DNA of 60,274 bases from Candidatus Omnitrophota bacterium (GTDB lineage: Bacteria > Omnitrophota > Gorgyraeia > B26-G9): positions 1 to 60,274 of the forward strand of contig JAZDHZ010000010.1 of the NCBI GenBank assembly GCA_043805415.1, written 5' to 3'. The notes under the pieces were generated by a model. It ran no database searches, was not told where the DNA came from, and was given only the letters and a program-made list of their open reading frames with translations. Position 1 is the first letter of the stretch; each line of letters starts with the position of its first letter. Both the position numbers and the translations under genes were made by a program. This document shows positions 6,656-60,094 of this stretch, in pieces.

Positions 6656-7330
6656 ATGCGCATATTATTAGTGGAGGATGAAAAAAAGATTGCCAGTTTT
6701 ATTGAGCGAGGGCTTAAGGCACACCGCTATATCGTAGATATTGCTTCTGACGGAGAACATGGCTTGGAGTTGGCGGAACTAAATCATTATGATTTAATTA
6801 TTCTGGATATTATGCTGCCGGGCAAAGACGGGATTACTGTTTGTAAAGACCTAAGGGATCAGGGAATTGATAGTCCGGTAATGATGCTTACTGCTAAAAG
6901 TTCAGTTACAGATAAAGTGCATGCTTTGCATTCAGGCGCGGATGACTATTTGGTCAAACCTTTTTCTTTTGAAGAGTTTACGGCCAGAGTAGCTGCCTTG
7001 CTTAGGCGGACAAGAAAGGAAAAGACCTCAATTTTAAAAATAGGCGATATCGTGCTTGATCAGATGACGCATAAAGTCACAAAAGCTGATCAGGAACTAT
7101 TGCTTACTCCCAAGGAATATAGTCTTTTAGAATATTTTATGCTTAATGCCGATCAAGTAATAACCCGGACAATGATATCAGAACATGTGTGGAATGAGGA
7201 TTTTGACAGCTTTTCCAATATTATCGATGTTTTTATCAATAACTTGCGCGGCAAGCTTGATTCTGATCGGAAAAAAAGCTGTATTCAAACCATTCGCGGT
7301 GTTGGCTATACTTTAAAAAGCAAAACCTAA
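6656..7330 (+). CDS. OmpR-family response regulator
   Basis: Receiver domain (DLIILDIMLPGKDG, phospho-accepting Asp) plus a winged-helix output (TIRGVGYTL). Confidence 0.9.
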   Translation: MRILLVEDEKKIASFIERGLKAHRYIVDIASDGEHGLELAELNHYDLIILDIMLPGKDGITVCKDLRDQGIDSPVMMLTAKSSVTDKVHALHSGADDYLVKPFSFEEFTARVAALLRRTRKEKTSILKIGDIVLDQMTHKVTKADQELLLTPKEYSLLEYFMLNADQVITRTMISEHVWNEDFDSFSNIIDVFINNLRGKLDSDRKKSCIQTIRGVGYTLKSKT

Positions 7331-8835
7331 TGAGAATTAATTCAATAAAATTCAAACTTTGCGTTCTCTATGTCGGAGCTCTGGGGCTTCTCCTGGTAGC
7401 TTACCGGGGCGTGCTTTACTATAATCTTTATCAGAATTTGTACCGGGATTCAGATGCCCGGCTGATTGCCAAAGCAGATGCGGTATATAAAAACCTCCGG
7501 GTATTTACCGCGCCGCTTAAAGAATCAAAAAGAGCAGTTATCTTTGGAACCAGAAGAATGCTGGGTGTTGATGTTACCTATCCGGATAAAACCCAGTTGA
7601 TGCGCATAGAAGATATATGGCTTAAGCGCAGAGATGAGCTTGGCTTGAATAAAGATTATATTAATCTTTTGAATGAAGAAGGCAAGACAGTTGTGAGTTC
7701 GCCGAATATTGATAAAGGTTTGAGCCATTTTCTTGAGAAATACGCAAAGGCAGATAATAAACAACAGGCTTTTTATAATCTAGTTTATAAGGAAAGCCTG
7801 AACCTGAGAATAATCGTTATGCCGGTTGATTTCGCGGATCTGGGCAAATATACGATTCAGATCGGTATAACCACTGACCCGATAATTTATATTTTGCGCG
7901 AACGGATTAATAAAAGCGCGATCAGTATTCCTTGGATTATGTTTTTAGCAGTGGTGATCAGCTATTTCATGGTGTGGCTTATTTTACGGCCGGTTAAACA
8001 GGTTGCAAAAATTGCCAATGATATTTCCCATGAAAATCTAAGCGCAAGAGTCAATGTGCAGAATATTGACCAGGAAATGAAATATCTTGCTGAATCATTT
8101 AATGATATGATTGAAAGGCTTGAAGAATCGTTCACCTATGTTGAGGAGTTTAGTTCATATGTTGCCCATGAACTAAGAACTCCGCTTACGATTATCAAAG
8201 GAGAGACAGAGGTGGCTTTGCAAACTGACCATACGCATGAAGAATGTAAAGCAGTGATGCGGTCTAATCTGCAGGAAGTGGAAAGGATGCTTAAGACAAT
8301 TGACCATTTGCTGTTGCTCGCGGATATGAATTACCGTAAACAGTCTGTTAATTTTGAACGAGTTGAGTTAGGAGAATTTTTAAAAGATATCCATGAAAAA
8401 AGCACTATGTTAGCAGCAGCAAAACAGATCACAGTTATGCTTGAAATGTCTAAGGACAAAATAGAACTAATGGCCAATCGCAATGAATTACGCAGATTAT
8501 TTTTTAATCTTATTGAGAACGCGATTAAGTTTACCCCTCCTGGCGGGATGATTGAGCTAAGCGTAAAACAGCAAAAAAACAAAGTCCAGATCAGTATCGC
8601 GGATACCGGTATTGGCATAAAACAAGAAGATATCCCTAAAATATTTAATAAATTTTTCCGTGCTTCCGGCGAAGAAAAGGAAAAACCTCTGGGCAGCGGT
8701 TTAGGGCTGGGGATTGCTCAGTCGATTGCCCGGATCCACCAGGGCCGAATTGAAGTTATCAGTCAACCGAAAAAAGGTTCGACTTTTACTGTGACCCTGC
8801 CGATTGCCCCATCTCTAAACATTAAGAAAAATTAA
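7330..8835 (+). CDS. Sensor histidine kinase (HAMP-HisKA-HATPase_c)
   Basis: Two TM segments, H-box SYVAHELRTPLT, N box NLIENAIKFT, G boxes DTGIGI and GSGLGLGIA. Its start overlaps the regulator stop (TAATG). Confidence 0.9.
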   Translation: MRINSIKFKLCVLYVGALGLLLVAYRGVLYYNLYQNLYRDSDARLIAKADAVYKNLRVFTAPLKESKRAVIFGTRRMLGVDVTYPDKTQLMRIEDIWLKRRDELGLNKDYINLLNEEGKTVVSSPNIDKGLSHFLEKYAKADNKQQAFYNLVYKESLNLRIIVMPVDFADLGKYTIQIGITTDPIIYILRERINKSAISIPWIMFLAVVISYFMVWLILRPVKQVAKIANDISHENLSARVNVQNIDQEMKYLAESFNDMIERLEESFTYVEEFSSYVAHELRTPLTIIKGETEVALQTDHTHEECKAVMRSNLQEVERMLKTIDHLLLLADMNYRKQSVNFERVELGEFLKDIHEKSTMLAAAKQITVMLEMSKDKIELMANRNELRRLFFNLIENAIKFTPPGGMIELSVKQQKNKVQISIADTGIGIKQEDIPKIFNKFFRASGEEKEKPLGSGLGLGIAQSIARIHQGRIEVISQPKKGSTFTVTLPIAPSLNIKKN

Positions 8836-47342: not shown

Positions 47343-47431
<89 letters not shown>

Positions 47432-48616: not shown

Positions 48617-48636
48617 AAAAACATTTGGGGGTAATT

Positions 48637-49644
48637 ATGAGAGTTAAATCAGCATATAGAGTTGTTTCTCTTTTCTCCGGTTGCGGAGGATTAGATCTGG
48701 GTTTTAGAGGTGGCTTTAAGTCTTTAGGTAAAAATTACTCAAAGCTGAATTACAATCTTGAGTGGGCTAATGATTTTAATCCGGAAGCTTGTTTGACCTT
48801 TCAGAAGTATTTTGGTGATCATATCGTTCATGGTGATATAACTGAAATTCTTAAAGGGATTAAACAAAATTCATTGTTTGATAAACCTTTGCCTGAAAAA
48901 GCGGATATAGTTTTAGGCGGGTTTCCTTGTCAGGATTTTAGTCACGCTGGCAAAAGACTTGGTTTTACCAGTAAGCGTGGCGTTTTATACCTGAGTATGA
49001 TTGAAGTTATAAAAAAAACTAAGCCCTATGTTTTCGTGGCTGAAAATGTTAGAGGCTTACTCACAATAAATAACGGTGAAGCGATAAAGACTATTATCCG
49101 GGATTTTGAGGCTTTAGGATATAATGTTGTTCCTAATTTATATCTGGCGGCGAATTATGGAGTGCCTCAGAGTCGCGAAAGAGTGATTCTTGTGGGAACA
49201 AGAAAAGACGTATTGCCGCCATTTGAGCATCCTCAACCAATTTTAAACAAAAATACCTGGATATCCGTTGAGAAAGCCATAGCTGATTTGGTTAACGAGA
49301 AAGAAGGATCTATTCCTAATCATTTTTGGTCAAAAGCTAAAAAAAATAAAGGGCAAGGGAATAATAATATTGATAAAGATAGACCTGCCCCAACAATGAG
49401 AGCCGAACATCATGGAAATATTGAATGGTTATGGAACGGGCAAAGAAGGTTGTCAGCCCGAGAAGCGGCGCGGATTCAATCATTTCCTGATGATTTTATT
49501 TTTCATCCATCAACTTCAAGCGCTTATAAGCAAATAGGCAACGCTGTTCCTCCCGTGCTTGGTTGGCATGTTGCTAAAGCGATTCAAGCTTTTCTTGATA
49601 AAAATTTACAAAAGGAATTAGAGTATGATTTGTGCTCGTGTTAA
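48637..49644 (+). CDS. DNA (cytosine-5)-methyltransferase
   Basis: Motif I LFSGCGGLDLGF, motif IV GGFPCQDFSHAGK, motif VI ENVRGL, motif VIII QSRERV, motif X GNAVPPVL. The ATG at 48637 follows a GGGGG RBS. Confidence 0.95.
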   Translation: MRVKSAYRVVSLFSGCGGLDLGFRGGFKSLGKNYSKLNYNLEWANDFNPEACLTFQKYFGDHIVHGDITEILKGIKQNSLFDKPLPEKADIVLGGFPCQDFSHAGKRLGFTSKRGVLYLSMIEVIKKTKPYVFVAENVRGLLTINNGEAIKTIIRDFEALGYNVVPNLYLAANYGVPQSRERVILVGTRKDVLPPFEHPQPILNKNTWISVEKAIADLVNEKEGSIPNHFWSKAKKNKGQGNNNIDKDRPAPTMRAEHHGNIEWLWNGQRRLSAREAARIQSFPDDFIFHPSTSSAYKQIGNAVPPVLGWHVAKAIQAFLDKNLQKELEYDLCSC

Positions 49645-50755
49645 TGACGCTCCTGAGGGTGATTTTGTTGAATTATTAAGAAAAACTCGAGATGTTATTT
49701 TTGAACATTTCAAAACAACTCCCGCGGAATTAAAAAAAATAAAAGCGGTTGAGTTTGAAACTTTAGTGTGTAAGAGCGCTGAAAAAGCAGCTAAAGGAAC
49801 TATTTTTGAGGGTAAAATAGAACAAACTGGGATTCACGCTTTTCCTGATATTATCGCTAGAAAATATTATGGAATAGAGGTTAAAACAACTACCGCGGAC
49901 AAATGGGTATCAACCGGCAATAGCGTGCTGGAAAGTACTCGCCAGGATAGCGTTGAAAGAATATATTTATTTTTCGCCAAATTCGGTGGAACTTTCGACG
50001 TGAAATATAGGTTATATCAGGAATGTCTTTATGAGATAGCGGTTACTCATTCCCCAAGGTATCAAATCAATATGGATTTAAGTGAAGGCCAAACTATTTT
50101 TGATAAGCTTGATATCGCTTATGATGAATTACGCTATCTGGAAAAACCAGTAAAACCAATTATTGAATATTACAGAAAATTGACGAAGCCCGGAGAAGAA
50201 ACCTGGTGGATGGAAGGTTCTGATTCGCAGGAAACGACTTTGAAGCCGATTGTTTCAATGTGGAAATATTTAGACGCTGAAACACAGAAAAATATCAGAG
50301 CGGAAGCTATGGCTCTGTTTCCGGAAATATTCAGTAATAAAACGACAAAATTTCAAAGATTACTTCCCTGGCTCGCCGCTAAGCATGGCGTGGTTATCCC
50401 CGCTGTGCGGGATATATTCACGGCTGGCGGGCAAATAAAATATACGATAAAAGGCGTTAATTATAAAAAATTACCCAAAATCTTTCATTATTTAGAAGAA
50501 AATTTTTCCATAGTTTTGGGGTATGTTAAAAAGATGACTCCTTCAGACGTTAAATATTATTGGCAAATCAATGAAGAAGTTGGGCAATACACGATTATTG
50601 ATCAATGGTGCGATTCTGTTATCGAGAACGCTAGTTTAGCGCTTAAGCGTAATAGACAGTTTATTGTGCATCTTTTGGCGGAAAAATTAGGCAAGAAAGG
50701 ATCATCATCTTTAGTAAAAGAAGAAATGAGTAAATATGGATTAGATTTTGACTGA
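49625..50755 (+). CDS. Type II restriction endonuclease candidate (PD-(D/E)XK)
   Basis: FPDIIARKYYGIEVKTT gives PD...E-V-K. It overlaps the methyltransferase gene by 20 nt and abuts vsr. Specificity unknown. Confidence 0.65.
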   Translation: MICARVNDAPEGDFVELLRKTRDVIFEHFKTTPAELKKIKAVEFETLVCKSAEKAAKGTIFEGKIEQTGIHAFPDIIARKYYGIEVKTTTADKWVSTGNSVLESTRQDSVERIYLFFAKFGGTFDVKYRLYQECLYEIAVTHSPRYQINMDLSEGQTIFDKLDIAYDELRYLEKPVKPIIEYYRKLTKPGEETWWMEGSDSQETTLKPIVSMWKYLDAETQKNIRAEAMALFPEIFSNKTTKFQRLLPWLAAKHGVVIPAVRDIFTAGGQIKYTIKGVNYKKLPKIFHYLEENFSIVLGYVKKMTPSDVKYYWQINEEVGQYTIIDQWCDSVIENASLALKRNRQFIVHLLAEKLGKKGSSSLVKEEMSKYGLDFD

Positions 50756-51225
50756 TGAAAAAAAAGATTAAAAACTATTCAGGTCGAAACTTTAAAAAAG
50801 ACAGATCTAATGACAAAATATCAAAGAAGAATCGTTCTTCTTTGATGGCTAAAATCCGCTCAAAAAATACTAAATTCGAAGAAGAATTTATAAACCTACT
50901 TAGAAAATTCACGCGAAAAAAATTCAAAACACACGTTACTGATATTAAGGGAAAACCAGATATAGTGTTTAATAATGCTAAGATCTGCGTTTTCTTAGAT
51001 AGTGATTTCTGGCATGGATGGCAATATCCAAGATGGAAACATTTGCTTAAAAATGATTTCTGGCGTGACAAGATAGAACGTAATCGAAGTAGGGATAAGA
51101 AAAATTCAAAGTTATTGAAAAAAGCGGGGTGGATTGTTATTAGGATTTGGGAGCATAATATTAAAAAAGATGTAAATCCTGTGATTGAAAGAATTATCGA
51201 AAAGATAGATAATAGGGGTGTTTGA
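50755..51225 (+). CDS. vsr: Very short patch repair endonuclease Vsr
   Basis: RSSLMAKIRSKNTKFE, GKPDIVFNNAKICVFLDSDFWHGW, FWRDKIERNRSRD and GWIVIRIWEH. The start shares one base with the upstream stop. Confidence 0.92.
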   Translation: MKKKIKNYSGRNFKKDRSNDKISKKNRSSLMAKIRSKNTKFEEEFINLLRKFTRKKFKTHVTDIKGKPDIVFNNAKICVFLDSDFWHGWQYPRWKHLLKNDFWRDKIERNRSRDKKNSKLLKKAGWIVIRIWEHNIKKDVNPVIERIIEKIDNRGV

Positions 51226-51719: not shown

Positions 51720-51736
51720 ACTACAGGAGGTTGAAT

Positions 51737-52735
51737 ATGTTTGAAAGGAATTTAACTAGGCAAACAATCGCATGGTTTTATGACCACATAAAGAGGAATC
51801 AGATGAACCTTCAGCCTCCTTATCAGCGCAAAAGTGTCTGGAGCAGGTCATACAAAAGGTATTTTATCGACACAATTTTACATAACTATTCTTCTCCTCC
51901 CATATTTTTGAATCATATAATAGGTTCGGATGGGGTTGTGAAGTATGAGGTTGTTGACGGAAGACAAAGACTAGAAGCAATAGTTTCTTTTATTGAGGGG
52001 GAAATTCCCGTAACTAGTAATTTTGGAGATGCGACTGTTGACAATAAATACTTTCAAGAATTAACGGATGATGCAAAGAAAAAATTTTGGAATTACCTGA
52101 TGTCTGTGGAAGATTTATCTGATCCGAGCCCAGCAATTATAAAAGAAACTTTTGATCGCCTTAATAGAAATGTTGCTAAGTTAACGTCTCAAGAATTAAG
52201 GCATGCAAGATATTCTGGAACCTTCATTGCCTTAATATCTGCAATAGCAGATGATCCTTTCTGGGAGGACAATGATCTGAGTAGACCCGCAACAATTAGA
52301 AGGATGAAAGATGTTGAGTTTATTTCAGAATTATTTCTCCTTACAATGCATGGTATTCAGAAAACTACTAAGGATGAACTGGATTTTTTCTACTCTGAAT
52401 ATGATGAAGAAATCCCGGAAGAAAAAAAACATAGAAAAGCTTTTAAGTGGATCCAGTCACAGATAGAGGCAATGGGTTTGAATATTTCGGGGACTCGGTT
52501 AAAAAACTACTCAGATTTTTATTCTCTTTGGGCTGCTTTTTTAGCATTATATGGTAGAAGTATAGATTTGATAGAAACTAAAAAAGCATTAACAGATTTC
52601 TTTTCTAAAATAGAAAGCAAAAGTAAATCTAAAGATATGATTAATTACTTAGAAACTGTAAAATCTCAACCTAATGAGGAAAAGAATCGAAGCGCAAGAG
52701 CAGAAATCTTAAAAGTATTGATAAAAACCAAATGA
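51737..52735 (+). CDS. DUF262 (ParB-like/GmrS-like) domain protein without a DUF1524 nuclease half
   Basis: QPPYQRKSVWSRSYKRYFIDTIL, VVDGRQRLEAI (a DGQQR-type motif) and FDRLNRNVAKLTSQELRHARY. AGGAGG sits 6 nt upstream of the ATG at 51737. Confidence 0.8.
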   Translation: MFERNLTRQTIAWFYDHIKRNQMNLQPPYQRKSVWSRSYKRYFIDTILHNYSSPPIFLNHIIGSDGVVKYEVVDGRQRLEAIVSFIEGEIPVTSNFGDATVDNKYFQELTDDAKKKFWNYLMSVEDLSDPSPAIIKETFDRLNRNVAKLTSQELRHARYSGTFIALISAIADDPFWEDNDLSRPATIRRMKDVEFISELFLLTMHGIQKTTKDELDFFYSEYDEEIPEEKKHRKAFKWIQSQIEAMGLNISGTRLKNYSDFYSLWAAFLALYGRSIDLIETKKALTDFFSKIESKSKSKDMINYLETVKSQPNEEKNRSARAEILKVLIKTK

Positions 52736-53679
52736 TAATTTCAAATTCAATCTCAGAACTTTATGAAGGCATTCGTAGGGAATTGGTATTAATGAAACCT
52801 GATATTGATACTATCTTGGGCCCATTGGCGGAACAATTTGATGGTTTTTTTATTAGCCGGATTAAGGGGCTAGAAAGTTTTGCGCAGAAAATTGAAACGG
52901 GGCAGGCTTGGAAACCAAATGAAATTATAGACTTATATGCCGCAACAATAGTTGTGCCCACATTTAAAGAAATGGAAAAAATTGAGGTTTTGTTAAAAAC
53001 AGATTTTAAGGTTTTAAAGACATTTTCTAATAGGAATAAAAAACCTACAGATTTTATTTACGATGATAAACATGTTCATCTGCAATATAAACATCAAGTT
53101 ACTCCTGGGAAAGAATACTTAGCTAAGCGGTTTGAATTGCAAATTAAGACTTTTTTGCAGCATGGATGGGCTAAAGCAACTCATGATATTTTATATAAAG
53201 GAGATCAGTTGGAATGGCCTCGATTTCGAGTTGCTGCGCAAATTAAAGCGATGCTTGAACAGTCGGATCAAATTCTTTTTGCCATAGATAAATCGTCATT
53301 GTTATGTGAAGACAATGGGCTCAATGAATATAAAGATCAGAATGTTTTGATAAAAATCATGAAAGATAAGTGGGATGTTAGCCAATTGCCTTCAAATATT
53401 AGAGGTACAGCTCAAGCCGTCTATGATTTACTGTGCATTAGTAATCAACCTATGGCTAAGTTAGTAGAATTAATTGAACTCGGCTGTCATGCTGATCTGG
53501 TAGACTCAAAGAGTTTAACGCCACACCAAGCGTTCTTAGGTATTCTTATTAGATTAGATGTAGATAGTTTGCGTGAGGGCCTAAAGAGAGCAAACAAAAA
53601 GATATTTATTTCTAATGAGTTAAAAGATTTGTTAGGAATAATCCCTGGGGATATTTTGGCAATGAGCATAAAAGTATAA
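52732..53679 (+). CDS. Divergent RelA/SpoT-homologue (RSH) nucleotidyltransferase-fold protein, toxSAS/CapRel-like
   Basis: SRIKGLESFAQKIE, IIDLYAATIVV and FELQIKTFLQHGWAKATHDILYK (the EhQhrT..qh.WA...H...YK core). It has a C-terminal extension of about 140 aa. The start overlaps the DUF262 stop (ATGA). Confidence 0.65.
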   Translation: MIISNSISELYEGIRRELVLMKPDIDTILGPLAEQFDGFFISRIKGLESFAQKIETGQAWKPNEIIDLYAATIVVPTFKEMEKIEVLLKTDFKVLKTFSNRNKKPTDFIYDDKHVHLQYKHQVTPGKEYLAKRFELQIKTFLQHGWAKATHDILYKGDQLEWPRFRVAAQIKAMLEQSDQILFAIDKSSLLCEDNGLNEYKDQNVLIKIMKDKWDVSQLPSNIRGTAQAVYDLLCISNQPMAKLVELIELGCHADLVDSKSLTPHQAFLGILIRLDVDSLREGLKRANKKIFISNELKDLLGIIPGDILAMSIKV

Positions 53680-54083: not shown

Positions 54084-55106
54084 ATGGCAAAAAAGAGAAC
54101 CTCTGAAAAAATTACTTATGAAATTGATCCGTATAATCGGTTGATCATCGACAAAAGTGGTAAAAAAAGCGAACTTTCCCGGTTCAGACAGGTTCTTGAC
54201 GGGCGCTTTAAAATTGATGAAGATAATACACTTACATACCTTATAAAAGCACCCACTCCAGAAGGAACAGAACTCCCGCATCAAGTAAAACTCGAAGGCG
54301 TTTGGTCTTTAGATAAGGACCATAATCTCTGCCTCGAGCTTAATAAGTGGGGCAGGGAGACTCTGGGCGATAAATTAACGCTACAGGGTGAAATTATCGA
54401 TACTTCCAAAAATTCCTTAGCTTTTAGCCTTACTACCCGCACTCAAGATAATATGCAGTCAATCTATATTCTTCAGCTTAAAGGCGCATGGCAGGCAGAT
54501 AAAAATAATCGTCTTACATTTCGAGTTCAAAAAGAAGAAGGCAGTCATGACATTCTTACTTTTAAAGGGACTTGGGAAATAAACAAACAGCATCAGATTA
54601 TTTATCAATACGAAAAAGCTCAGCTGGTCCGCAAAGAGAAAAATATTCATATTCTAACATTTCAAGGTTATTGGGATATTAAAGATAAAGGAAGATTGTC
54701 TTATGTTTTGGATTTGCAGTCTGATTCTGTGTTTAGTTTTAAAACCAGCGTGGCAGTATTTAAAGATAAATACATTAAATATGAATTAGGCATTGGTTTG
54801 TCCAAAAGTTTAGAAGAGCAGATAATTACGCTTTGCGGTAAATGGAAAATTAAAAAAGATATCGGCTTGGTATTTGAAGTGGAATATGAAAATGGAAATA
54901 TTCGGGCAATTACTTTTGGGGCGGAAGCAAAGTTAAGCGCAAGAGACAGTATAAGTTTTGAATTGAAGAACGATCAGAATAAAAATATCAGCGCTCAATT
55001 ACAGCTTTCCCGAAAGATATTAGATGGAGAAGGATTATCGTTTTTGCGGTTTTTAAAGTCGAAGGAGGAAACAGCGGTGTATGTCGGCGCAGGTTTTCGT
55101 TGGTGA
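54084..55106 (+). CDS. Cytoplasmic beta-rich protein built from about 7 degenerate repeats (unknown family)
   Basis: Repeats: LDGRFKIDEDNTLTYLI / LEGVWSLDKDHNLCLEL / LQGEIIDTSKNSLAFSL / LKGAWQADKNNRLTFRV / FKGTWEINKQHQIIYQY / FQGYWDIKDKGRLSYVL / LCGKWKIKKDIGLVFEV. No signal peptide. It ends in GAGFRW. Confidence 0.6.
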   Translation: MAKKRTSEKITYEIDPYNRLIIDKSGKKSELSRFRQVLDGRFKIDEDNTLTYLIKAPTPEGTELPHQVKLEGVWSLDKDHNLCLELNKWGRETLGDKLTLQGEIIDTSKNSLAFSLTTRTQDNMQSIYILQLKGAWQADKNNRLTFRVQKEEGSHDILTFKGTWEINKQHQIIYQYEKAQLVRKEKNIHILTFQGYWDIKDKGRLSYVLDLQSDSVFSFKTSVAVFKDKYIKYELGIGLSKSLEEQIITLCGKWKIKKDIGLVFEVEYENGNIRAITFGAEAKLSARDSISFELKNDQNKNISAQLQLSRKILDGEGLSFLRFLKSKEETAVYVGAGFRW

Positions 55107-55163
55107 ATAAAGCATGATAAACACTGATTGAGAGAATGATGAACACAGATATAGGAGGGTGAA

Positions 55164-55949
55164 ATGATAAAAAGACTTGGATGCCTTAAGGATGAATTTA
55201 GTGGGAAGGATTATTTGATGCGGGCGTATTTGCCGATAATGAAATTGCCAAAAAAAATTGATTATACATCCAAGTTATCACCAGTCAGAGATCAAGGTGA
55301 TGAAGGCACTTGTGTAAGCTTTGCCAGTGCTAGCGGAATGAAAGAGTATCAGGAAATGCAGGATTACTCCAAGTTTATCGAGCTTTCCCCGAGATATATT
55401 TATAGTGAATGTAAAAAGATAGACGGCATGCCAGAAGACGAAGGAACAACACTTCGCGCGGCAATGCAGGTGCTGAATAAAAAAGGAGTGTGTCAGGAAA
55501 AGTTTTGGCCATATCAGCCGCATCAAACAAACAAAGCCAAGACAGGGTTTGCGGCTAATGCCAAGAAATTTCAGATAAAAACTTATGCCCGGATACTTAA
55601 TTTGAGCGAATTACGTTTGAATTTGGTAACTTTTGGACCTTGTATTATTGGTGTGGAGGTTTTTGAAGGGATGATGACTACTAAAACCGGCATTGTTCCT
55701 ATGCCCAAGAAAAATGAAAGAGTCTTAGGCGGGCACGCGATTTGCCCGGTAGGTTATGATGACACTAAGAAACTGATCAAATTTAAAAACTCTTGGTCAG
55801 AGCAATGGGGGCAGAAAGGCTATGGATTTTTGCCTTATGCTTATATTGATAAATACATGATGGATGCCTGGAGTTCAGTTGATATTGAGGATGAAAATCC
55901 AATGACTTTGGCGAGTGTGTTGCAATTCGCTGAGAAGCGAATTAGCTGA
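55164..55949 (+). CDS. Papain-like cysteine peptidase (family C1) lacking both signal peptide and prodomain
   Basis: RDQGDEGTCVSFA (oxyanion Gln + catalytic Cys at residue 50), GGHAICPVGYDD (His) and IKFKNSWSEQWGQKGYGFLPY (Asn-Ser-Trp). Confidence 0.88.
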   Translation: MIKRLGCLKDEFSGKDYLMRAYLPIMKLPKKIDYTSKLSPVRDQGDEGTCVSFASASGMKEYQEMQDYSKFIELSPRYIYSECKKIDGMPEDEGTTLRAAMQVLNKKGVCQEKFWPYQPHQTNKAKTGFAANAKKFQIKTYARILNLSELRLNLVTFGPCIIGVEVFEGMMTTKTGIVPMPKKNERVLGGHAICPVGYDDTKKLIKFKNSWSEQWGQKGYGFLPYAYIDKYMMDAWSSVDIEDENPMTLASVLQFAEKRIS

Positions 55950-55988
55950 TGGCTCATGGCTGATAGCTTATACAGAAAAGGGAAAGTT

Positions 55989-56759
55989 ATGATAAATGTG
56001 ATCTTTATCCATGGGATTAATTATCAGACTACTGGATATAGCAATTGGTTGTTTCAGAATATTCTTTGTGAGTATGGAAAAATCTTAAAGAAAAAAGGGA
56101 TTGCTCAGGAAGAAATAGAACAGAAAAAGGCTCAATTTATCCAAAAAGAAATTATTTGGGCTGATGTTACCACTGATTTGACTAACCGTTATCTGAATTT
56201 AGAATACGAGCTTTTTGGCAAGAAAAAGGGCTTTTGGAATTGGGCTTCAAAGAAAGTTGATCCTTTAGCTTTACAGATAATGTATTACATTAAGGATAAG
56301 GGAGATAAGAATTCTGGGGAAATGGACATTTTGGAGAAGGTGGATCGAGCGTTTCATTCCAGCACTCAAGAAGCAAATGATACAATCGTTATTGCTCATT
56401 CTCTGGGTAGTGTAATTGCTTTTGATTATTTGTTCAGTTTTAGAAAATATTATTTAGACCCAAAGGTAAATGTAGTATCGTTTATCACTTTAGGTTCGCC
56501 AATCCCGATATTTATCTCTGCTATGGGGCATGTTGAATCGGAGCTAGTCTTACCTGCGAATATTAAAGCTTGGCATAATCTTTATGATAATGAAGATGGC
56601 ATAGCCAGAAGATGCAAGCCTTTCTTTCCAAAGATAGATATCCAGGAGGTCGGCGTAAGAACCGGATTCTTTCCAATCAGTGCGCATGTGAAATATTGGC
56701 AGAATAAACAAACAGCTTCGAAAATAGCAAAGATCCTTGCGGGTAATGATAAACGCTGA
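55989..56759 (+). CDS. Alpha/beta-hydrolase-fold serine hydrolase (lipase/esterase-like)
   Basis: VIFIHGIN (oxyanion region) and the nucleophile elbow IVIAHSLGSVIAFDYL (GxSxG-type). Candidate acid and His residues are in NLYDNEDG and ISAHVKYW. The ATG at 55989 is preferred over 55956, which lies in a repeat word. Confidence 0.7.
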   Translation: MINVIFIHGINYQTTGYSNWLFQNILCEYGKILKKKGIAQEEIEQKKAQFIQKEIIWADVTTDLTNRYLNLEYELFGKKKGFWNWASKKVDPLALQIMYYIKDKGDKNSGEMDILEKVDRAFHSSTQEANDTIVIAHSLGSVIAFDYLFSFRKYYLDPKVNVVSFITLGSPIPIFISAMGHVESELVLPANIKAWHNLYDNEDGIARRCKPFFPKIDIQEVGVRTGFFPISAHVKYWQNKQTASKIAKILAGNDKR

Positions 56760-56896: not shown

Positions 56897-57979
56897 ATGA
56901 AAAAAATATTAATGTTTACTGGGGTTATTATGCTTTTTTGCCTTTCTTTGGCAAAGGCAGATTATTATGATCTTGATGCATTTCAAATAAATCAAACAAA
57001 AACTTATACAACAAAGGAGCACCAAAAATCTAAAGGTATAAATTTCACTATTAAATATCCCAATTCCTGGATTCCTGCTGAAGGAGAAAGACCACATATA
57101 GTACAAAAATTTTCGAAGGTTTTTGAAGATGGAACTTCAGTAATTTGTTTAATTTTAATAAAGGACTTGCCTTCAGAAGTTAGGATATTTTCCGATGCAG
57201 ACATTGCTAAAGAAATGTTTTCTAAAGAATCGGTTAAATTAATGATGGGGGAAGGGTATGAATTAATTGATCATTTGCAAACAAAATATGATGGACAGCC
57301 AGGAGCTTTGAGTGTATTTTTAGTTGTTCAAGAACAAGTGGGAATCAAAATATTTACTTATATGATGCAACATGCGTTTATCTATTCAAAAAAAATGGTT
57401 GCAATTCAATGCTCTATTGGAGGGGCACTCTCAAAGAGAGATAGCATAGAAGAAAAGTATAGGGACTATGAGCTGGTTTTTAAGCAAATTGGCAATAGTC
57501 TAGTTATTGAAGATAAATGGAGTCAACCCGTTGTTACGGAGAAACCTTCTGCTACGGAGCTTGTTTTTGGCGAGTATTGGTGGCTATCTATATTAATATC
57601 AGCATTTTTAACTTGGGGTGTAGGGTTATTGTTACCAGTTTTAATCCGATTTGTTTTTGTTCGTAGGCCTTTGTCAAAAAATATAACAATAATTCTTGTT
57701 GTTGTATTTTGGGTTTTTAATATAGCATTATTTACATTATTAGAGAGTAAAAGTAAAACTCATTCAGCATTACTTTTAGTAGCTGTAGCATCATATTATA
57801 TTTTAAGAAGAGGAAGTAAAAAAGATAATAAGAAATCCAACATCACTAAAGACAGCATACAAACACACAAAAAAACAGATAAACCTCAAATTTGCCCTAA
57901 ATGCGGTGAAGGGTATGATGAGAGCTGGGGGGTATGTTTTAGATGTTCTGTTCCACTAGTTGACAGTGAAGAAAATTAA
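56897..57979 (+). CDS. Membrane protein: signal peptide + periplasmic domain + 3 TM helices + cytoplasmic zinc ribbon
   Basis: MLFCLSLAKA signal peptide and a PsbP/DcrB-like FTIKYPNSWIPAE region. The TM block is WWLSILISAFLTWGVGLLLPVLIRFVF..., and the C-terminal ribbon is CPKCGEGYDESWGVCFRCS. Confidence 0.55.
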   Translation: MKKILMFTGVIMLFCLSLAKADYYDLDAFQINQTKTYTTKEHQKSKGINFTIKYPNSWIPAEGERPHIVQKFSKVFEDGTSVICLILIKDLPSEVRIFSDADIAKEMFSKESVKLMMGEGYELIDHLQTKYDGQPGALSVFLVVQEQVGIKIFTYMMQHAFIYSKKMVAIQCSIGGALSKRDSIEEKYRDYELVFKQIGNSLVIEDKWSQPVVTEKPSATELVFGEYWWLSILISAFLTWGVGLLLPVLIRFVFVRRPLSKNITIILVVVFWVFNIALFTLLESKSKTHSALLLVAVASYYILRRGSKKDNKKSNITKDSIQTHKKTDKPQICPKCGEGYDESWGVCFRCSVPLVDSEEN

Positions 57980-58076: not shown

Positions 58077-58865
58077 ATGAATATATTTGAAGGCCAAATA
58101 AGAAACGCAAAAAAAGCTTACGAATGGCGCAGCTTTATCCCTAATAATTTAAAAAACTATTTAGATTTTCGTTCTAAGGCGACAGGGATAACTCTGGTTT
58201 CATTATTTGATTTTGCACCGATGAGAGGGATTAATGTAAATAGCGATAATATAAAATTTATAATGGAGACTTTAACAAAAGAGCAGGATTTTTTGCTTAG
58301 CCCAAATAAAGATGATGATAAGAAAAGAGCAATCTTAGAAAAATTAAAGTTTAAATCAAGACTTGCGACCAAAGAAGAGTATTTAGAAGAAGATGTTCAA
58401 GCATTTTTAGTAAGAGAAATTCTTAGTTCTGAAAACAATGCTAAAAATATCGCTCAGAAAATCATTGAGGAGTGCAAACTATCCAGCTTAAAATATTTAG
58501 CTTCAGAATTTGAATGGAGCGAACAAGGCAAAAAAGACAGGGTTGATATTTTGTGCTGCGATGGCGGGGATTATAACAAACTATTAATAATTGAGCTTAA
58601 AAAAGTACGCACAACAAAACTAGAGCAGGCACGCTATTTAAAGATTTTTAAAGAACATGAAACTGAAATCAAAAAATTTGTTGCAGTATTAACAGGTAAA
58701 GAAGTAGACGCATGCCGGACAGATATAAAAATTATATATCTGATGCCAAGCCATCCGCGATTAGATAAAAACATGTGGGTAAAAGTGATAAAGGAGCAGG
58801 GGGTAGATGGGATAATTTTTTATAATACCGGATATCCGTTTGACTGCGCAGTGTTTGAAAAATGA
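58077..58865 (+). CDS. PD-(D/E)XK nuclease-fold protein (NucS/DUF91-like core)
   Basis: ASEFEWSEQGKKDRVDILCCDGGDYNKLLIIELKKVR gives E...D...ExK, as in the NucS C-terminal domain. Confidence 0.55.
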   Translation: MNIFEGQIRNAKKAYEWRSFIPNNLKNYLDFRSKATGITLVSLFDFAPMRGINVNSDNIKFIMETLTKEQDFLLSPNKDDDKKRAILEKLKFKSRLATKEEYLEEDVQAFLVREILSSENNAKNIAQKIIEECKLSSLKYLASEFEWSEQGKKDRVDILCCDGGDYNKLLIIELKKVRTTKLEQARYLKIFKEHETEIKKFVAVLTGKEVDACRTDIKIIYLMPSHPRLDKNMWVKVIKEQGVDGIIFYNTGYPFDCAVFEK

Positions 58866-60094
58866 AAAATTTGAAGTTAATAATCCATAGAGGCACCCAG
58901 GAAATAGGCGGAAGCTGTGTTGAGTTTAAAACTGAAAATACTCGGCTGTTGATTGATTTTGGCCTGCCTCTTGTTGAAAATGACAAAAGATCCTTTGATC
59001 TAAAAACAATCATAAGTAAAAAAATAGATGGTATCTTGATTTCGCACGCGCATCTGGATCATTATGGGTTGTTGCAGTTTATTGATTCTAAGATCCCGGT
59101 TTATATGAGCCAGGGAGCAAAAAGTTTAATAGATGTTTCAAAGCTTTTTCTGCCTGTAAAAATCGGCAATATAAATACATTTATAATTAAAAATAAGGAA
59201 TCTGTTCAGATTGGGGATTTTACAATTACGCCTTATTTAGTTGATCATTCTGCTTTTGACGCCTTTGCTTTTTTAATCGAGGCGCAAGGTAAAAGGCTGT
59301 TTTATTCTGGCGATTTTCGGGCGCATGGGCGAAAATCAAAGTTATTTAAATATCTGGTCGAAAATCCCCCTAAAGATATTGACTGTTTACTTATGGAAGG
59401 TTCAGCGCTCGGCAGAGAGGATGCTCAATATAAAACTGAGACAGAAGTAGAAAAACGGCTTATAGAAATTTTAAAGGAGAGGGAGAACATCACTTTTTTG
59501 TTTGCCTCATCCCAAAATATCGATAGGATAGTCTCCGCATACCGGGCATGTCTTAGGACTGATTCGATTTTTGTTATTGATATTTATACTGCTTTTATTT
59601 TGGATAAATTGAGTAAAGTTTCTAAAAGGATCCCGCAATTTAACTGGAAGAATATAAGAGTGAAATTTCTTAAGTCGCATGCCAATGCACTTGTAAAAGC
59701 AGGATATAGAGATTTACTTTTAGCTTATAATAAACGCAAAATTGATATGACTGAAATCAATCTTAAGAAGAATAAAATTCTTATGCTAGCTCGAAATAAT
59801 TCTGTTTTTCCTTTAATTTTAAAGGGAGTTAAGGGAGCAAGAGGGGCAAGAATAGCATATTCTATGTGGGATGGTTATCTTACCGAAGAATTTAGAAAAT
59901 TCTGTAAAGGCAAAGGGGTAAAACTGGAATATATTCATACAAGCGGGCATGCAACAACGGAAGACCTTAAAACGTTCGCTTCTGCGTTAAAGCCAAGAAA
60001 ATTGATACCAATACATACTTTTGATGCCGGAAAATATCCTGATTTGTTTGAAAATGTAAAGATATTGCAGGATGGAGAAGAATTGGTTATATGA
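58862..60094 (+). CDS. Metallo-beta-lactamase-fold / beta-CASP-like nuclease
   Basis: GGSCVEFKTENTRLLIDFG, ILISHAHLDHYG (HxHxDH), YSGDFRAHG and HTSGHATTEDLKTFASALKPRKLIPIHT (beta-CASP motif C-like). The start overlaps the upstream stop (ATGA). Confidence 0.75.
   Translation: MKNLKLIIHRGTQEIGGSCVEFKTENTRLLIDFGLPLVENDKRSFDLKTIISKKIDGILISHAHLDHYGLLQFIDSKIPVYMSQGAKSLIDVSKLFLPVKIGNINTFIIKNKESVQIGDFTITPYLVDHSAFDAFAFLIEAQGKRLFYSGDFRAHGRKSKLFKYLVENPPKDIDCLLMEGSALGREDAQYKTETEVEKRLIEILKERENITFLFASSQNIDRIVSAYRACLRTDSIFVIDIYTAFILDKLSKVSKRIPQFNWKNIRVKFLKSHANALVKAGYRDLLLAYNKRKIDMTEINLKKNKILMLARNNSVFPLILKGVKGARGARIAYSMWDGYLTEEFRKFCKGKGVKLEYIHTSGHATTEDLKTFASALKPRKLIPIHTFDAGKYPDLFENVKILQDGEELVI

What the first reader, a model, noticed from the sequence alone, without database searches (positions are those of the whole stretch)
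54084..56759. Seven-repeat beta-rich protein + prodomain-less cytoplasmic papain-like protease + alpha/beta hydrolase: possible protease-gated effector cassette
Seen in the sequence: three same-strand genes are separated by only 57 and 39 nt.
- Gene 1 (54084..55106) has about 7 degenerate repeats of roughly 40-50 aa sharing h-x-G-x-W-x-h-D/K-x-x-x-x-L-x-h. It has no signal peptide and ends in an aromatic residue (GAGFRW).
- Gene 2 is an unmistakable C1 peptidase (QG..GTC, GGHA, KNSW). Its catalytic Cys is already at residue 50. That leaves no room for the roughly 100-aa inhibitory propeptide of papain-type enzymes, and there is no secretion signal.
- Gene 3 is a GxSxG serine hydrolase (AHSLGS).

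Established knowledge: papain-family enzymes are normally held inactive by a prodomain or a dedicated inhibitor. Several bacterial immune systems pair a protease with a substrate it activates, for example gasdermins next to proteases.

Inference: an unrestrained cytoplasmic cysteine protease probably needs a partner that inhibits it or is its substrate. The repeat protein is the obvious candidate, and the hydrolase could be a lipase-type effector. The cassette lies in the island between R-M/DUF262 genes and nuclease genes, which fits a conflict system. The membrane zinc-ribbon protein at 56897..57979 may or may not belong to it.
Basis: partly seen in the sequence, partly recalled or inferred. 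Interest (0 to 1): 0.75.

Follow-up and report, generated by a model that had tools for sequence, protein, structure and literature searches.

The report
Beta-repeat protein paired with short papain protease
A short, cytoplasmic papain-type protease of an already known bacterial class travels through Omnitrophota genomes together with an uncharacterised all-beta repeat protein, but the proposed three-gene "protease-gated effector cassette" is not a conserved unit and its function is unproven.

Summary

**Gene 2** is a short, xylellain-type C1A peptidase, which is a published class. It has no classical propeptide, but it does have a near-invariant N-terminal segment of about 25 residues.

**Gene 1** belongs to a large unnamed family centred on Omnitrophota (493 clusters at 50% identity). 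It is built from about five 62-aa repeats, not seven of 40-50 aa. Its confident AlphaFold model matches no solved or viral structure.

**Gene 3** is a lipase-like serine hydrolase with a conserved Ser-Asp-His triad.

**Linkage.** Across 160 related loci, only the gene 1-gene 2 pair is recurrent. The peptidase is gene 1's commonest neighbour, always on the same strand. In the window's gene 1 subclade the pair occurs in 12 of 14 assessable loci, each time with different flanks, and several copies occur per MAG. Gene 3 follows the peptidase in only 6 of 60 assessable loci. Its slot can instead hold a class-3 lipase or secreted PLD-like proteins, and distant gene 3 homologues sit in unrelated contexts. 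The membrane zinc-ribbon gene never co-occurs with any of them.

**Function.** Nothing matches a known defence system, and defence enrichment was inconclusive. Best reading: a mobile protease-plus-partner pair with interchangeable hydrolase neighbours. Moderately interesting, function unproven.

The parts
54084..55106 (+). Gene 1: a 340-aa cytoplasmic all-beta protein of about five 62-aa repeats. It belongs to an unnamed family centred on Omnitrophota. In this subclade it is the upstream partner of the peptidase.
   Evidence: ORF. No Pfam, NCBIfam, PADLOC or PHROG family. More than 618 homologues at 90% clustering and 493 representatives at 50%. Internal repeats. AF2 model with pLDDT 86.6 and pTM 0.86, about 27 strands. 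No fold match: TM<=0.15 against PDB and BFVD. No hydrophobic segment.
55164..55949 (+). Gene 2: a 261-aa short single-domain C1A (papain-family) cysteine peptidase of the xylellain type. It has Gln44, Cys50, His191 and Asn209 in the conserved motifs, a conserved N-terminal segment of about 25 aa, and a conserved C-terminal tail.
   Evidence: PF00112, E=3.4e-23. Best solved relative 3OIS, E=1e-27, aligned from residue 25. Family alignment invariants. Stop codon 3 codons upstream. 815+ homologues of about 260 aa. PHROG peptidase hit at 3e-28, and relatives in 29 viral contigs.
55956..56759 (+). Gene 3: a lipase-like alpha/beta serine hydrolase (alternative start at 55989). It is an occasional, separable neighbour of the peptidase rather than a core component.
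   Evidence: AHSLGS nucleophile elbow, with HG19-20, Ser149, Asp214 and His244 at least 95% conserved. Only sub-threshold Pfam hits, all to lipase or phospholipase families: DDHD, LCAT, DUF676, PGAP1. Downstream of the peptidase in 6 of 60 assessable loci. Distant homologues in unrelated contexts.

Best explanation
**Proposed model**
- Genes 1 and 2 form a two-gene module that is inherited and relocated together in Omnitrophota.
- Gene 2 is an intracellular cysteine protease of the xylellain type, a short C1A. I infer that it is held in check mainly by its own conserved N-terminal segment of about 25 residues, not by a classical propeptide.
- Gene 1 is an all-beta protein of five repeats with no solved structural counterpart. 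In this subfamily I infer that it is the protease's dedicated partner: a substrate, an adaptor or a regulator.
- Gene 3 is an independently acting lipase-like serine hydrolase. It is one of several interchangeable degradative enzymes that collect downstream of the peptidase; the others are class-3 lipases and secreted PLD-like enzymes.
- The trio seen in this window is therefore one local arrangement of a loose hydrolase neighbourhood, not a fixed three-component system.
- The module sits in accessory, island-like DNA. Its role is probably in inter-organism conflict, but that is inferred only from its context.

**Shown:** the family assignments, intact catalytic residues, absence of export signals, the repeat architecture, the co-occurrence statistics, the differing flanks and the multiple copies per MAG.

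**Inferred:** physical or functional interaction between genes 1 and 2, autoinhibition by the N-terminal segment, and any conflict role.
For: - In 80 gene-1-centred loci from species-representative genomes, the C1 peptidase is the commonest neighbour family: 19 loci by clustering, about 22 by tblastn. The next families reach 9. It is always on the same strand and usually 10-100 nt downstream.
- In 80 peptidase-centred metagenome loci, gene 1 is present in 27. It lies upstream in 16 of the 50 loci with at least 1.3 kb of upstream sequence.
- The coupling is clade-specific. It occurs in 12 of 14 assessable loci in the window's gene 1 subclade (>=68% identity), 4 of 7 in a divergent clade at 44-47%, and about 3 of 50 in between.
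- The flanks of the coupled pairs are unrelated from locus to locus.
- One MAG carries at least five gene 1 copies on different contigs (L004, L006, L007, L010, L011).
- In a few loci the order is inverted, yet the two genes stay adjacent (L127, L134, L135).
- Gene 1 and gene 2 divergences correlate: Mantel r=0.50, with 0 of 2000 permutations reaching it.
- The peptidase catalytic motifs and its N-terminal segment are invariant. Its closest solved relative is 3OIS, and the class is described in PMC10380794.
- No terminator-like site lies on the + strand between the three genes.
- Where gene 3 is absent, the downstream slot holds Lipase_3 (E=3e-32) or PLDc_2 proteins with signal peptides.
- Neighbours of coupled modules include integrases, Type I R-M and Xre HTH proteins. 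Neighbours of stand-alone gene 1 are housekeeping genes.
Against: - There is no direct evidence of any interaction. A complex prediction could not be run.
- Most gene 1 homologues and most peptidase homologues occur without the other within the stored flanks, so neither strictly needs the other in cis.
- The peptidase has other frequent partners: a 104-aa three-TM protein whose stop overlaps the peptidase start in most of those loci (21 of 80 loci), an OMP-like protein and a C92 amidase. Gene 1 is therefore one of several alternatives.
- The Mantel correlation is partly expected from shared organismal phylogeny.
- Multiple copies within a MAG could partly reflect binning of related populations.
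- Gene 2 has backbone-like GC3 (0.41), unlike the AT-rich flanks. That fits a resident gene as well as it fits mobile cargo.
- The N-terminal autoinhibition is taken from my recollection of the xylellain structure paper (Leite et al. 2013), which could not be read here.
Confidence: 0.4

Rival explanations
1. **Independent neighbours.** The three genes have unrelated functions: a general cytoplasmic peptidase, a structural or binding beta-repeat protein, and a lipase. They are adjacent only because these compact, co-directional genomes pack genes tightly and because close relatives share ancestry.
For: - 43 of 51 ORFs in the window are on the + strand, and the median same-strand gap is 61 nt.
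- Most gene 1, gene 2 and gene 3 homologues occur without the others.
- Unrelated genes are often inserted between them: EVE-NucS, PD-(D/E)XK, GIY-YIG (my reading of the sequence, not scanned), DUF5677, SPOR.
- Stand-alone gene 1 copies sit among housekeeping genes.
Against: - The peptidase is gene 1's commonest neighbour, in about a quarter of the loci, although the flanks are otherwise unrelated. Chance would give about 1% (my estimate, for a 20-kb span in a genome of about 2 Mb).
- The adjacency persists across gene 1 identities from 44 to 93%. It survives order inversion and recurs in several copies per MAG.
Confidence: 0.25
2. **Attack or feeding enzymes.** The cluster is a set of degradative enzymes (protease, lipases, PLD-type nuclease or phospholipase) used by a host-dependent or predatory Omnitrophota cell. 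Gene 1 would act as a carrier or chaperone for export by a route that does not use Sec.
For: - The recurrent neighbourhood is made of hydrolases. The PLDc_2 proteins and the OMP-like c4 have signal peptides or lipoboxes, and the small cl61 partner has three predicted TM helices.
- Omnitrophota are described as ultra-small bacteria with predatory lifestyles (bioRxiv 10.1101/2023.11.21.568195).
- Gene 2 has backbone-like composition.
Against: - The gene 1, gene 2 and gene 3 proteins have no signal peptide or TM segment.
- No secretion-system genes were seen among the recurrent neighbours.
- The closest characterised relative of gene 2, xylellain, is recalled (not checked here) as a regulated intracellular-type enzyme.
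- The coupled modules lie among integrases and R-M genes rather than envelope or feeding loci.
Confidence: 0.15
3. **The first reader's model.** A protease-gated defence cassette in which the unrestrained peptidase is inhibited by the repeat protein, or cleaves it, in a gasdermin-like way. The hydrolase is the lipase effector that kills the infected cell.
For: - The gene 1-gene 2 coupling and its accessory-island context.
- Gene 3 has an intact lipase-like triad.
- The C-terminal 30 residues of gene 1 are highly conserved in sequence but modelled with low confidence, as a helix plus a terminal strand. That is what a cleavable regulatory tail could look like.
Against: - Gene 3 is absent from about 90% of peptidase loci, and the trio is confined to close relatives.
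- There are no PADLOC hits.
- Gene 1 shows no gasdermin, pore-former or inhibitor homology by Pfam, by PDB sequence profile or by fold search.
- The peptidase belongs to a class that already has its own N-terminal segment.
- Defence enrichment was inconclusive.
Confidence: 0.12

Closest known systems
Xylellain-type short bacterial C1A peptidases (Xylella fastidiosa xylellain, PDB 3OIS)
   Same: Gene 2 is a single-domain papain-fold enzyme of about 260 aa. It has no I29 propeptide and no signal peptide, and it carries a short N-terminal extension before the mature-enzyme start. 3OIS is its best solved relative (E=1e-27). The class, including its transfer into phages, is described in PMC10380794, and gene 2 relatives occur in 29 viral contigs.
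   Different: The gene 2 extension is only about 24 residues, against about 53 residues before the aligned region in the 3OIS chain. Its sequence (LGCxKDxFxxxDYLMRAYLP) is specific to this subfamily. It also has a conserved C-terminal tail. No gene 1-like partner has been described for xylellain, as far as I recall.
Staphopain-staphostatin operons (clan CA protease plus a cytoplasmic all-beta, lipocalin-like inhibitor); recalled from memory
   Same: A papain-fold cysteine protease is co-transcribed with a cytoplasmic all-beta protein. Gene 1 family members give recurrent sub-threshold hits to lipocalin-like Pfam families.
   Different: Staphopains belong to family C47 and are secreted with a prodomain. 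Staphostatins are single eight-strand barrels of about 110 aa, encoded downstream of the protease. Gene 1 is 340 aa with five 62-aa repeats, is encoded upstream, shows no detectable homology, and often occurs without a protease.
Bacterial gasdermin-protease defence pairs; recalled from memory
   Same: A protease gene lies next to a possible substrate in accessory DNA.
   Different: Gene 1 has no sequence or fold similarity to gasdermins. The known partner proteases are of other families (caspase-like, CHAT, subtilisin or trypsin-like), not C1. The adjacency here is not obligatory, and nothing matches PADLOC.
Lipase/phospholipase-type alpha/beta hydrolases (DDHD, LCAT, DUF676, PGAP1-like, class-3 lipases)
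   Same: Gene 3 has the GxSxG elbow, an HG oxyanion motif and a conserved Ser-Asp-His triad. A genuine Lipase_3 gene occupies the same slot in sister loci.
   Different: Gene 3 reaches no Pfam gathering threshold and has no solved relative by sequence. Its substrate is unknown.

Membership tests
Peptidase family C1A (papain family) | Match to the Pfam Peptidase_C1 model above its gathering score | tested here: met
   PF00112: 83.3 bits against a cutoff of 20.7, E=3.4e-23, covering residues 28-221.
Peptidase family C1A (papain family) | Catalytic Gln-Cys-His-Asn residues in their conserved motifs | tested here: met
   Q44, C50, H191 (nearly invariant) and N209 lie in DQGDEGTC, GGHA and KNSW. 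They are conserved across 27 family members and align to cathepsin K and 3OIS.
Peptidase family C1A (papain family) | N-terminal I29-type inhibitory propeptide of about 100 aa and a secretion signal, as in classical zymogens | tested here: not met
   Only 24-27 residues precede the mature-enzyme start. A stop codon lies 3 codons upstream. There is no hydrophobic segment.
Xylellain-type short bacterial C1A peptidases | Single-domain bacterial C1A of about 260-290 aa whose nearest characterised relative is xylellain | tested here: met
   The best PDB hit is 3OIS at E=1e-27; the next is cathepsin K at 6e-13. All homologues are about 260 aa. The class is named in PMC10380794.
Xylellain-type short bacterial C1A peptidases | N-terminal segment occupies the active-site cleft, and the enzyme is regulated by a bound nucleotide | not testable with these tools
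   This feature is recalled from the xylellain structure paper, which is not held in the library. Only the conservation of the N-terminal segment was shown.
Alpha/beta-hydrolase lipases (gene 3) | GxSxG nucleophile elbow with a conserved Ser-Asp-His triad and an oxyanion HG motif | tested here: met
   H148-S149-L150-G151, D214, H244 and H19-G20 are at least 95% conserved in 115 sequences.
Alpha/beta-hydrolase lipases (gene 3) | Match to a curated lipase family above its threshold | tested here: not met
   DDHD 17.7 bits (cutoff 28.3), LCAT 15.5 (21), DUF676 14.6 (20.3), PGAP1 13.8 (24.3). No NCBIfam match and no PDB match by sequence.
Known anti-phage defence systems (PADLOC-DB v2) | A component protein matches a defence-system model | tested here: not met
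   Genes 1 and 2 give no hit. Gene 3 gives only a chance-level REase_II hit at E=0.007.
Gasdermin-protease systems | The partner protein is a gasdermin homologue and sits obligatorily next to its protease | tested here: not met
   No gasdermin family appears among the Pfam hits of 87 gene 1 family members. No fold match. About 70-75% of gene 1 loci lack the peptidase.
Beta-propeller (considered for gene 1) | Closed ring of four-strand blades, which would show as a high TM-score to known propellers | tested here: not met
   The top Foldseek E-values are to propellers, but with TM<=0.15 and rmsd of about 20 A. Modelled strands reach 12-16 residues.
Outer-membrane beta-barrel (considered for gene 1) | Sec signal peptide plus a C-terminal beta-signal ending in an aromatic residue | tested here: not met
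   The C-terminus GAGFRW resembles a beta-signal. However, the N-terminus is a conserved polar motif (YEIDPxNRL) with no hydrophobic stretch. There is no homology to the true OMP-like neighbour c4.
Lipocalin-like domains (considered for gene 1) | Match to lipocalin-like Pfam families, or structural similarity to them | tested here: inconclusive
   Only sub-threshold hits: DUF7840 in 13 of 87 members, Lipocalin_4 in 7, DUF5004 in 5 (best E=1.2e-5). Structural matches to lipocalin-like entries have TM<=0.18.

The most novel reading that the evidence does not exclude
Genes 1 and 2 are the core of a previously undescribed, mobile, protease-based conflict module of Omnitrophota. In it, a new-fold five-repeat beta protein is the sensor or the cleavable substrate of a xylellain-type cysteine protease. 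Interchangeable lipid or nucleic-acid hydrolases (the gene 3 family, class-3 lipases, PLD-like enzymes) serve as swappable effectors downstream.
Probability: 0.15. Interest if true: 0.7.

Novelty: new variant of a known kind. Interest (0 to 1): 0.4.

Why it matters
**If the gene 1-gene 2 coupling is functional**
- It would give the first partner and the first physiological context for the widespread but poorly understood xylellain-type bacterial and phage C1A peptidases.
- It would give a first functional handle on a large protein family centred on Omnitrophota (493 clusters at 50% identity), whose confidently predicted all-beta repeat fold has no solved counterpart.
- It would add a papain-family enzyme to the set of protease-based accessory modules in a phylum known for host-dependent or predatory lifestyles.

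**If the coupling is not functional**
- The finding reduces to an ordinary short C1A peptidase and a lipase-like hydrolase lying next to an uncharacterised protein in a genomic island.

Tried and rejected
1. **First AlphaFold run.** With 30 close homologues it failed (pLDDT 32.5). It was rescued with 87 diverse sequences.
2. **Structural and profile searches for gene 1.** Fold searches against PDB and BFVD gave only generic beta-meander matches with TM<=0.15. The PDB sequence-profile search gave chance hits to antibody chains.
3. **Propeller, OMP-barrel and lipocalin readings of gene 1.** The first two are rejected and the third is unresolved (see the membership tests).
4. **RHS/YD or MORN repeats.** The motif resemblance (YEIDPxNRL, GxW) was considered, but only 2 of 87 members gave chance-level RHS hits and no Rhs or Tc structures appeared in the fold search.
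5. **Integron or cassette-array idea.** It was prompted by 175-nt repeats bracketing the peptidase gene in L007. The window has no comparable intergenic repeats and no + strand terminator between the genes, so I rejected it for this locus.
6. **Phage origin of gene 1.** It has no relatives in IMG/VR and no PHROG match.
7. **Homology between gene 1 and c4.** c4 is the OMP-like protein that occupies the same slot upstream of the peptidase in other loci. hhalign probability was 0.1%.
8. **PADLOC-based defence enrichment.** Comparing module neighbours with neighbours of stand-alone gene 1 was inconclusive, because R-M models are redundant and helicases and ABC proteins cross-hit.
9. **Zinc-ribbon membrane gene and the 262-aa ORF.** Neither has a homologue in any of the 160 related loci, so I excluded both from the module.
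10. **Xylellain structure paper.** It is not held in the library.
11. **Literature link.** A search for Peptidase_C1 together with anti-phage returned no paper.


Full report
**1. What is in the sequence**

- Gene 1: 54084-55106, 340 aa.
- Gene 2: 55164-55949, 261 aa.
- Gene 3: 55956-56759, 267 aa, or 256 aa if translation starts at ATG 55989. Homologues split about evenly between the two starts.

Gene 1 and gene 2 are 57 nt apart. Gene 2 and gene 3 are 6 or 39 nt apart, depending on the gene 3 start. No terminator-like site lies on the + strand between them. This geometry is not distinctive, however. In this window 43 of 51 ORFs are on the + strand, and the median gap between consecutive same-strand genes is 61 nt.

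**2. Gene 2, the peptidase**

- It is a firm Peptidase_C1 match (PF00112, E=3.4e-23).
- The Gln-Cys-His-Asn residues sit in the expected motifs and are conserved across the family.
- A stop codon lies three codons upstream of the ATG. All 815+ homologues are about 260 aa. The protein has no hydrophobic segment. So there is no hidden prodomain or signal peptide.
- This is not unusual. Its best solved relative is 3OIS (E=1e-27). [quoted passage not shown] In line with that, gene 2 matches a PHROG peptidase family (3e-28) and has relatives in 29 IMG/VR contigs.
- The 24-27 residues ahead of the mature-enzyme start are almost invariant in the family (G6, C7, D10, D16, L18, M19, Y22, L23, P24), and so is a C-terminal tail.
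- From memory, part of xylellain's N-terminal sequence blocks its active site. I could not read that paper here. If the same holds for gene 2, the enzyme carries its own restraint.

**3. Gene 1, the repeat protein**

- It matches no family in Pfam, NCBIfam, PADLOC or PHROGs.
- It nevertheless belongs to a large family. There are more than 618 clusters at 90% identity, almost all annotated as Candidatus Omnitrophota. There are 493 representatives at 50% identity, nearly all 320-345 aa with one architecture.
- A profile self-comparison shows real internal repeats with a period of about 62 residues. Shifts of 62, 124 and 185 residues give E=3e-19, 9e-17 and 6e-6. It is not seven units of 40-50 aa.
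- AlphaFold failed with 30 close homologues (pLDDT 32). With 87 diverse sequences it gave a confident model (pLDDT 86.6, pTM 0.86). The model has about 27 antiparallel strands, some of 12-16 residues, then a helix at 316-326 and a terminal strand modelled with lower confidence.
- Foldseek against PDB and BFVD gave no credible match: TM<=0.15 and rmsd of about 20 A. A sequence profile against PDB gave nothing.
- Reading the sequence against the modelled strands, the strands look strictly amphipathic, with one hydrophobic face and one face rich in Lys, Glu and Arg.
- There are recurrent sub-threshold hits to lipocalin-like families.
- The C-terminus GAGFRW resembles an outer-membrane beta-signal. 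But the N-terminus is a conserved polar motif, not a signal peptide.
- The fold class remains unassigned.

**4. Gene 3, the hydrolase**

- It has the AHSLGS nucleophile elbow, an HG motif and a Ser149-Asp214-His244 triad, each at least 95% conserved across 115 sequences.
- It gives only sub-threshold Pfam hits, but all are to lipase or phospholipase families: DDHD, LCAT, DUF676 and PGAP1.

**5. Co-occurrence, the key test**

I fetched 80 gene-1-centred loci from species-representative genomes and 80 peptidase-centred loci from metagenomes.

*Around gene 1*
- The C1 peptidase is by far the commonest neighbouring family: 19 loci by clustering and about 22 by tblastn. The next families are a Band_7 pair (9 loci), PLD-like proteins (9) and gene 3 (8).
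- The peptidase is always on the same strand as gene 1 and usually lies 10-100 nt downstream.

*Around the peptidase*
- Gene 1 is present in 27 of 80 loci. It lies upstream in 16 of the 50 loci with enough upstream sequence.
- PLD-like genes occur in 22 loci.
- A 104-aa protein with three predicted TM helices (cl61) occurs in 21 loci, and in most of them its stop overlaps the peptidase start.
- Gene 3 occurs in only 6 of 60 assessable loci.

*The coupling is clade-specific*

| Gene 1 identity to the window copy | Assessable loci with the peptidase |
|---|---|
| >=68% (the window's subclade) | 12 of 14 |
| 44-47% (a divergent clade) | 4 of 7 |
| 48-64% (intermediate) | about 3 of 50 |

*The pair behaves as a unit*
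- The genes flanking the coupled pairs are unrelated from locus to locus.
- Single MAGs carry several copies on different contigs, for example L004, L006, L007, L010 and L011.
- Order inversions keep the two genes adjacent (L127, L134, L135).
- Divergences of the two proteins correlate: Mantel r=0.50, with 0 of 2000 permutations reaching it.

*The trio does not behave as a unit*
- The conserved order is gene 1, then [cl61], then the peptidase, then [gene 3 or a true class-3 lipase, E=3e-32], then [PLDc_2 with a signal peptide].
- Unrelated genes are inserted between these: EVE-NucS, PD-(D/E)XK, GIY-YIG (my reading of the sequence, not scanned), DUF5677 and a SPOR lipoprotein.
- More distant gene 3 homologues (49-59% identity) lie in unrelated contexts. 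One lies among housekeeping genes, one beside a Gabija-like OLD/UvrD pair, and one next to PilZ and DUF2079 genes.
- The zinc-ribbon membrane gene (56897-57979) and the 262-aa ORF have no homologue in any related locus.

**6. Genomic context**

- A tRNA-Ser gene at 47343-47431 coincides with a drop in GC from 0.40 to 0.35.
- Upstream of the tRNA lie housekeeping genes: PFOR, a P-type ATPase and an HD protein.
- Downstream lie LexA, a Dcm/Vsr R-M set, a DUF262 + RelA_SpoT pair with PADLOC hits, then genes 1-3, and then a beta-CASP MBL nuclease.
- Within this AT-rich stretch, gene 2 has backbone-like GC3 (0.41, against 0.40+-0.04 for the backbone). Genes 1 and 3 are intermediate (0.33 and 0.35). 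The flanking genes are lower, at 0.23-0.31.
- Neighbours of coupled modules elsewhere include phage-type integrases, Type I R-M parts and Xre HTH proteins. Neighbours of stand-alone gene 1 copies are mostly housekeeping genes. The numbers are small.
- A PADLOC-based comparison of the two neighbour sets was inconclusive.
- None of the three proteins matches a PADLOC model.
- No paper in the library links Peptidase_C1 to anti-phage systems.

**7. Interpretation**

*Best-supported reading (confidence about 0.4).* Genes 1 and 2 are a mobile two-gene module. Gene 2 is a cytoplasmic, probably self-restrained, xylellain-type cysteine protease. Gene 1 is a new-fold beta-repeat partner whose role (substrate, adaptor or regulator) is unknown. 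Gene 3 is a separable lipase-like enzyme, one of several interchangeable hydrolases that gather downstream of the peptidase.

*Rival readings*
- Unrelated neighbours in a compact, co-directional genome (0.25).
- Attack or feeding enzymes of a predatory Omnitrophota cell (0.15; lifestyle as described in bioRxiv 10.1101/2023.11.21.568195).

No interaction, cleavage or phenotype has been shown. The decisive work is a complex prediction and heterologous co-expression with catalytic mutants.

**8. Verdict**

There is a real pair, not a trio. The missing prodomain is ordinary for this class. A defence role is plausible from context but untested.
- Novelty: a new variant of the protease-plus-partner theme, built on a known peptidase class and an uncharacterised protein family.
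- Interest: moderate, 0.4.

Noticed in passing
window 51731-53679: A DUF262/GmrSD_N protein (PADLOC NsnA 3e-31, PD-T4-2_A 4e-19) overlaps by 4 nt with a RelA_SpoT-domain protein (PADLOC PDC-S33 1.4e-10). This looks like a two-gene defence pair just upstream of the finding.
   Followed up: partly
window 47343-47431: A tRNA-Ser(gga) gene followed by a GC-rich hairpin marks the point where GC falls from 0.40 to 0.35. It is the likely boundary of a genomic island that runs to the end of the window. No integrase and no direct repeat of the tRNA 3' end was found downstream.
   Followed up: partly
window 48625-51225: A Dcm-like cytosine methyltransferase, a 376-aa ORF with no family match (possibly the restriction enzyme) and a Vsr-like ORF look like a type II R-M set with very-short-patch repair. 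The assignments come from reading the translations; only the 376-aa ORF was scanned.
   Followed up: no
window 58862-60094: A beta-CASP metallo-beta-lactamase nuclease (RNase J-like, weak Cas14-type N-terminal hit) recurs downstream of the gene 1-gene 2 pair in the closest relatives: L004/L085 at 86% and L088 at 71%. It may be part of the conserved framework in this lineage.
   Followed up: partly
L007 5355-6965: Three copies of an intergenic repeat of 175-340 nt bracket the peptidase gene in this sister locus, each giving a spurious antisense ORF. This may be a MITE-like element. Nothing comparable is present in the window.
   Followed up: partly
L079 3672-3986, L083 1128-1442 and 19 other peptidase loci: A 104-aa protein with three predicted TM helices (cl61) lies immediately upstream of the peptidase, and in most of these loci its stop overlaps the peptidase start. 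That suggests translational coupling and membrane association of the protease in that lineage.
   Followed up: partly
L195 6001-12261 (also L196): A gene 3 homologue (51% identity) is followed by an Exo_endo_phos protein and then an OLD-TOPRIM AAA_15 ATPase plus a UvrD helicase, which is a Gabija-like pair.
   Followed up: no
L120, L122, L160, L161 (peptidase at about 7001-7780): An alternative arrangement around the peptidase: a 430-440-aa OMP-like protein with a signal peptide lies upstream, and a 177-aa PLDc_2 lipoprotein lies downstream. Both partners are envelope proteins, and the OMP-like protein is unrelated to gene 1.
   Followed up: partly
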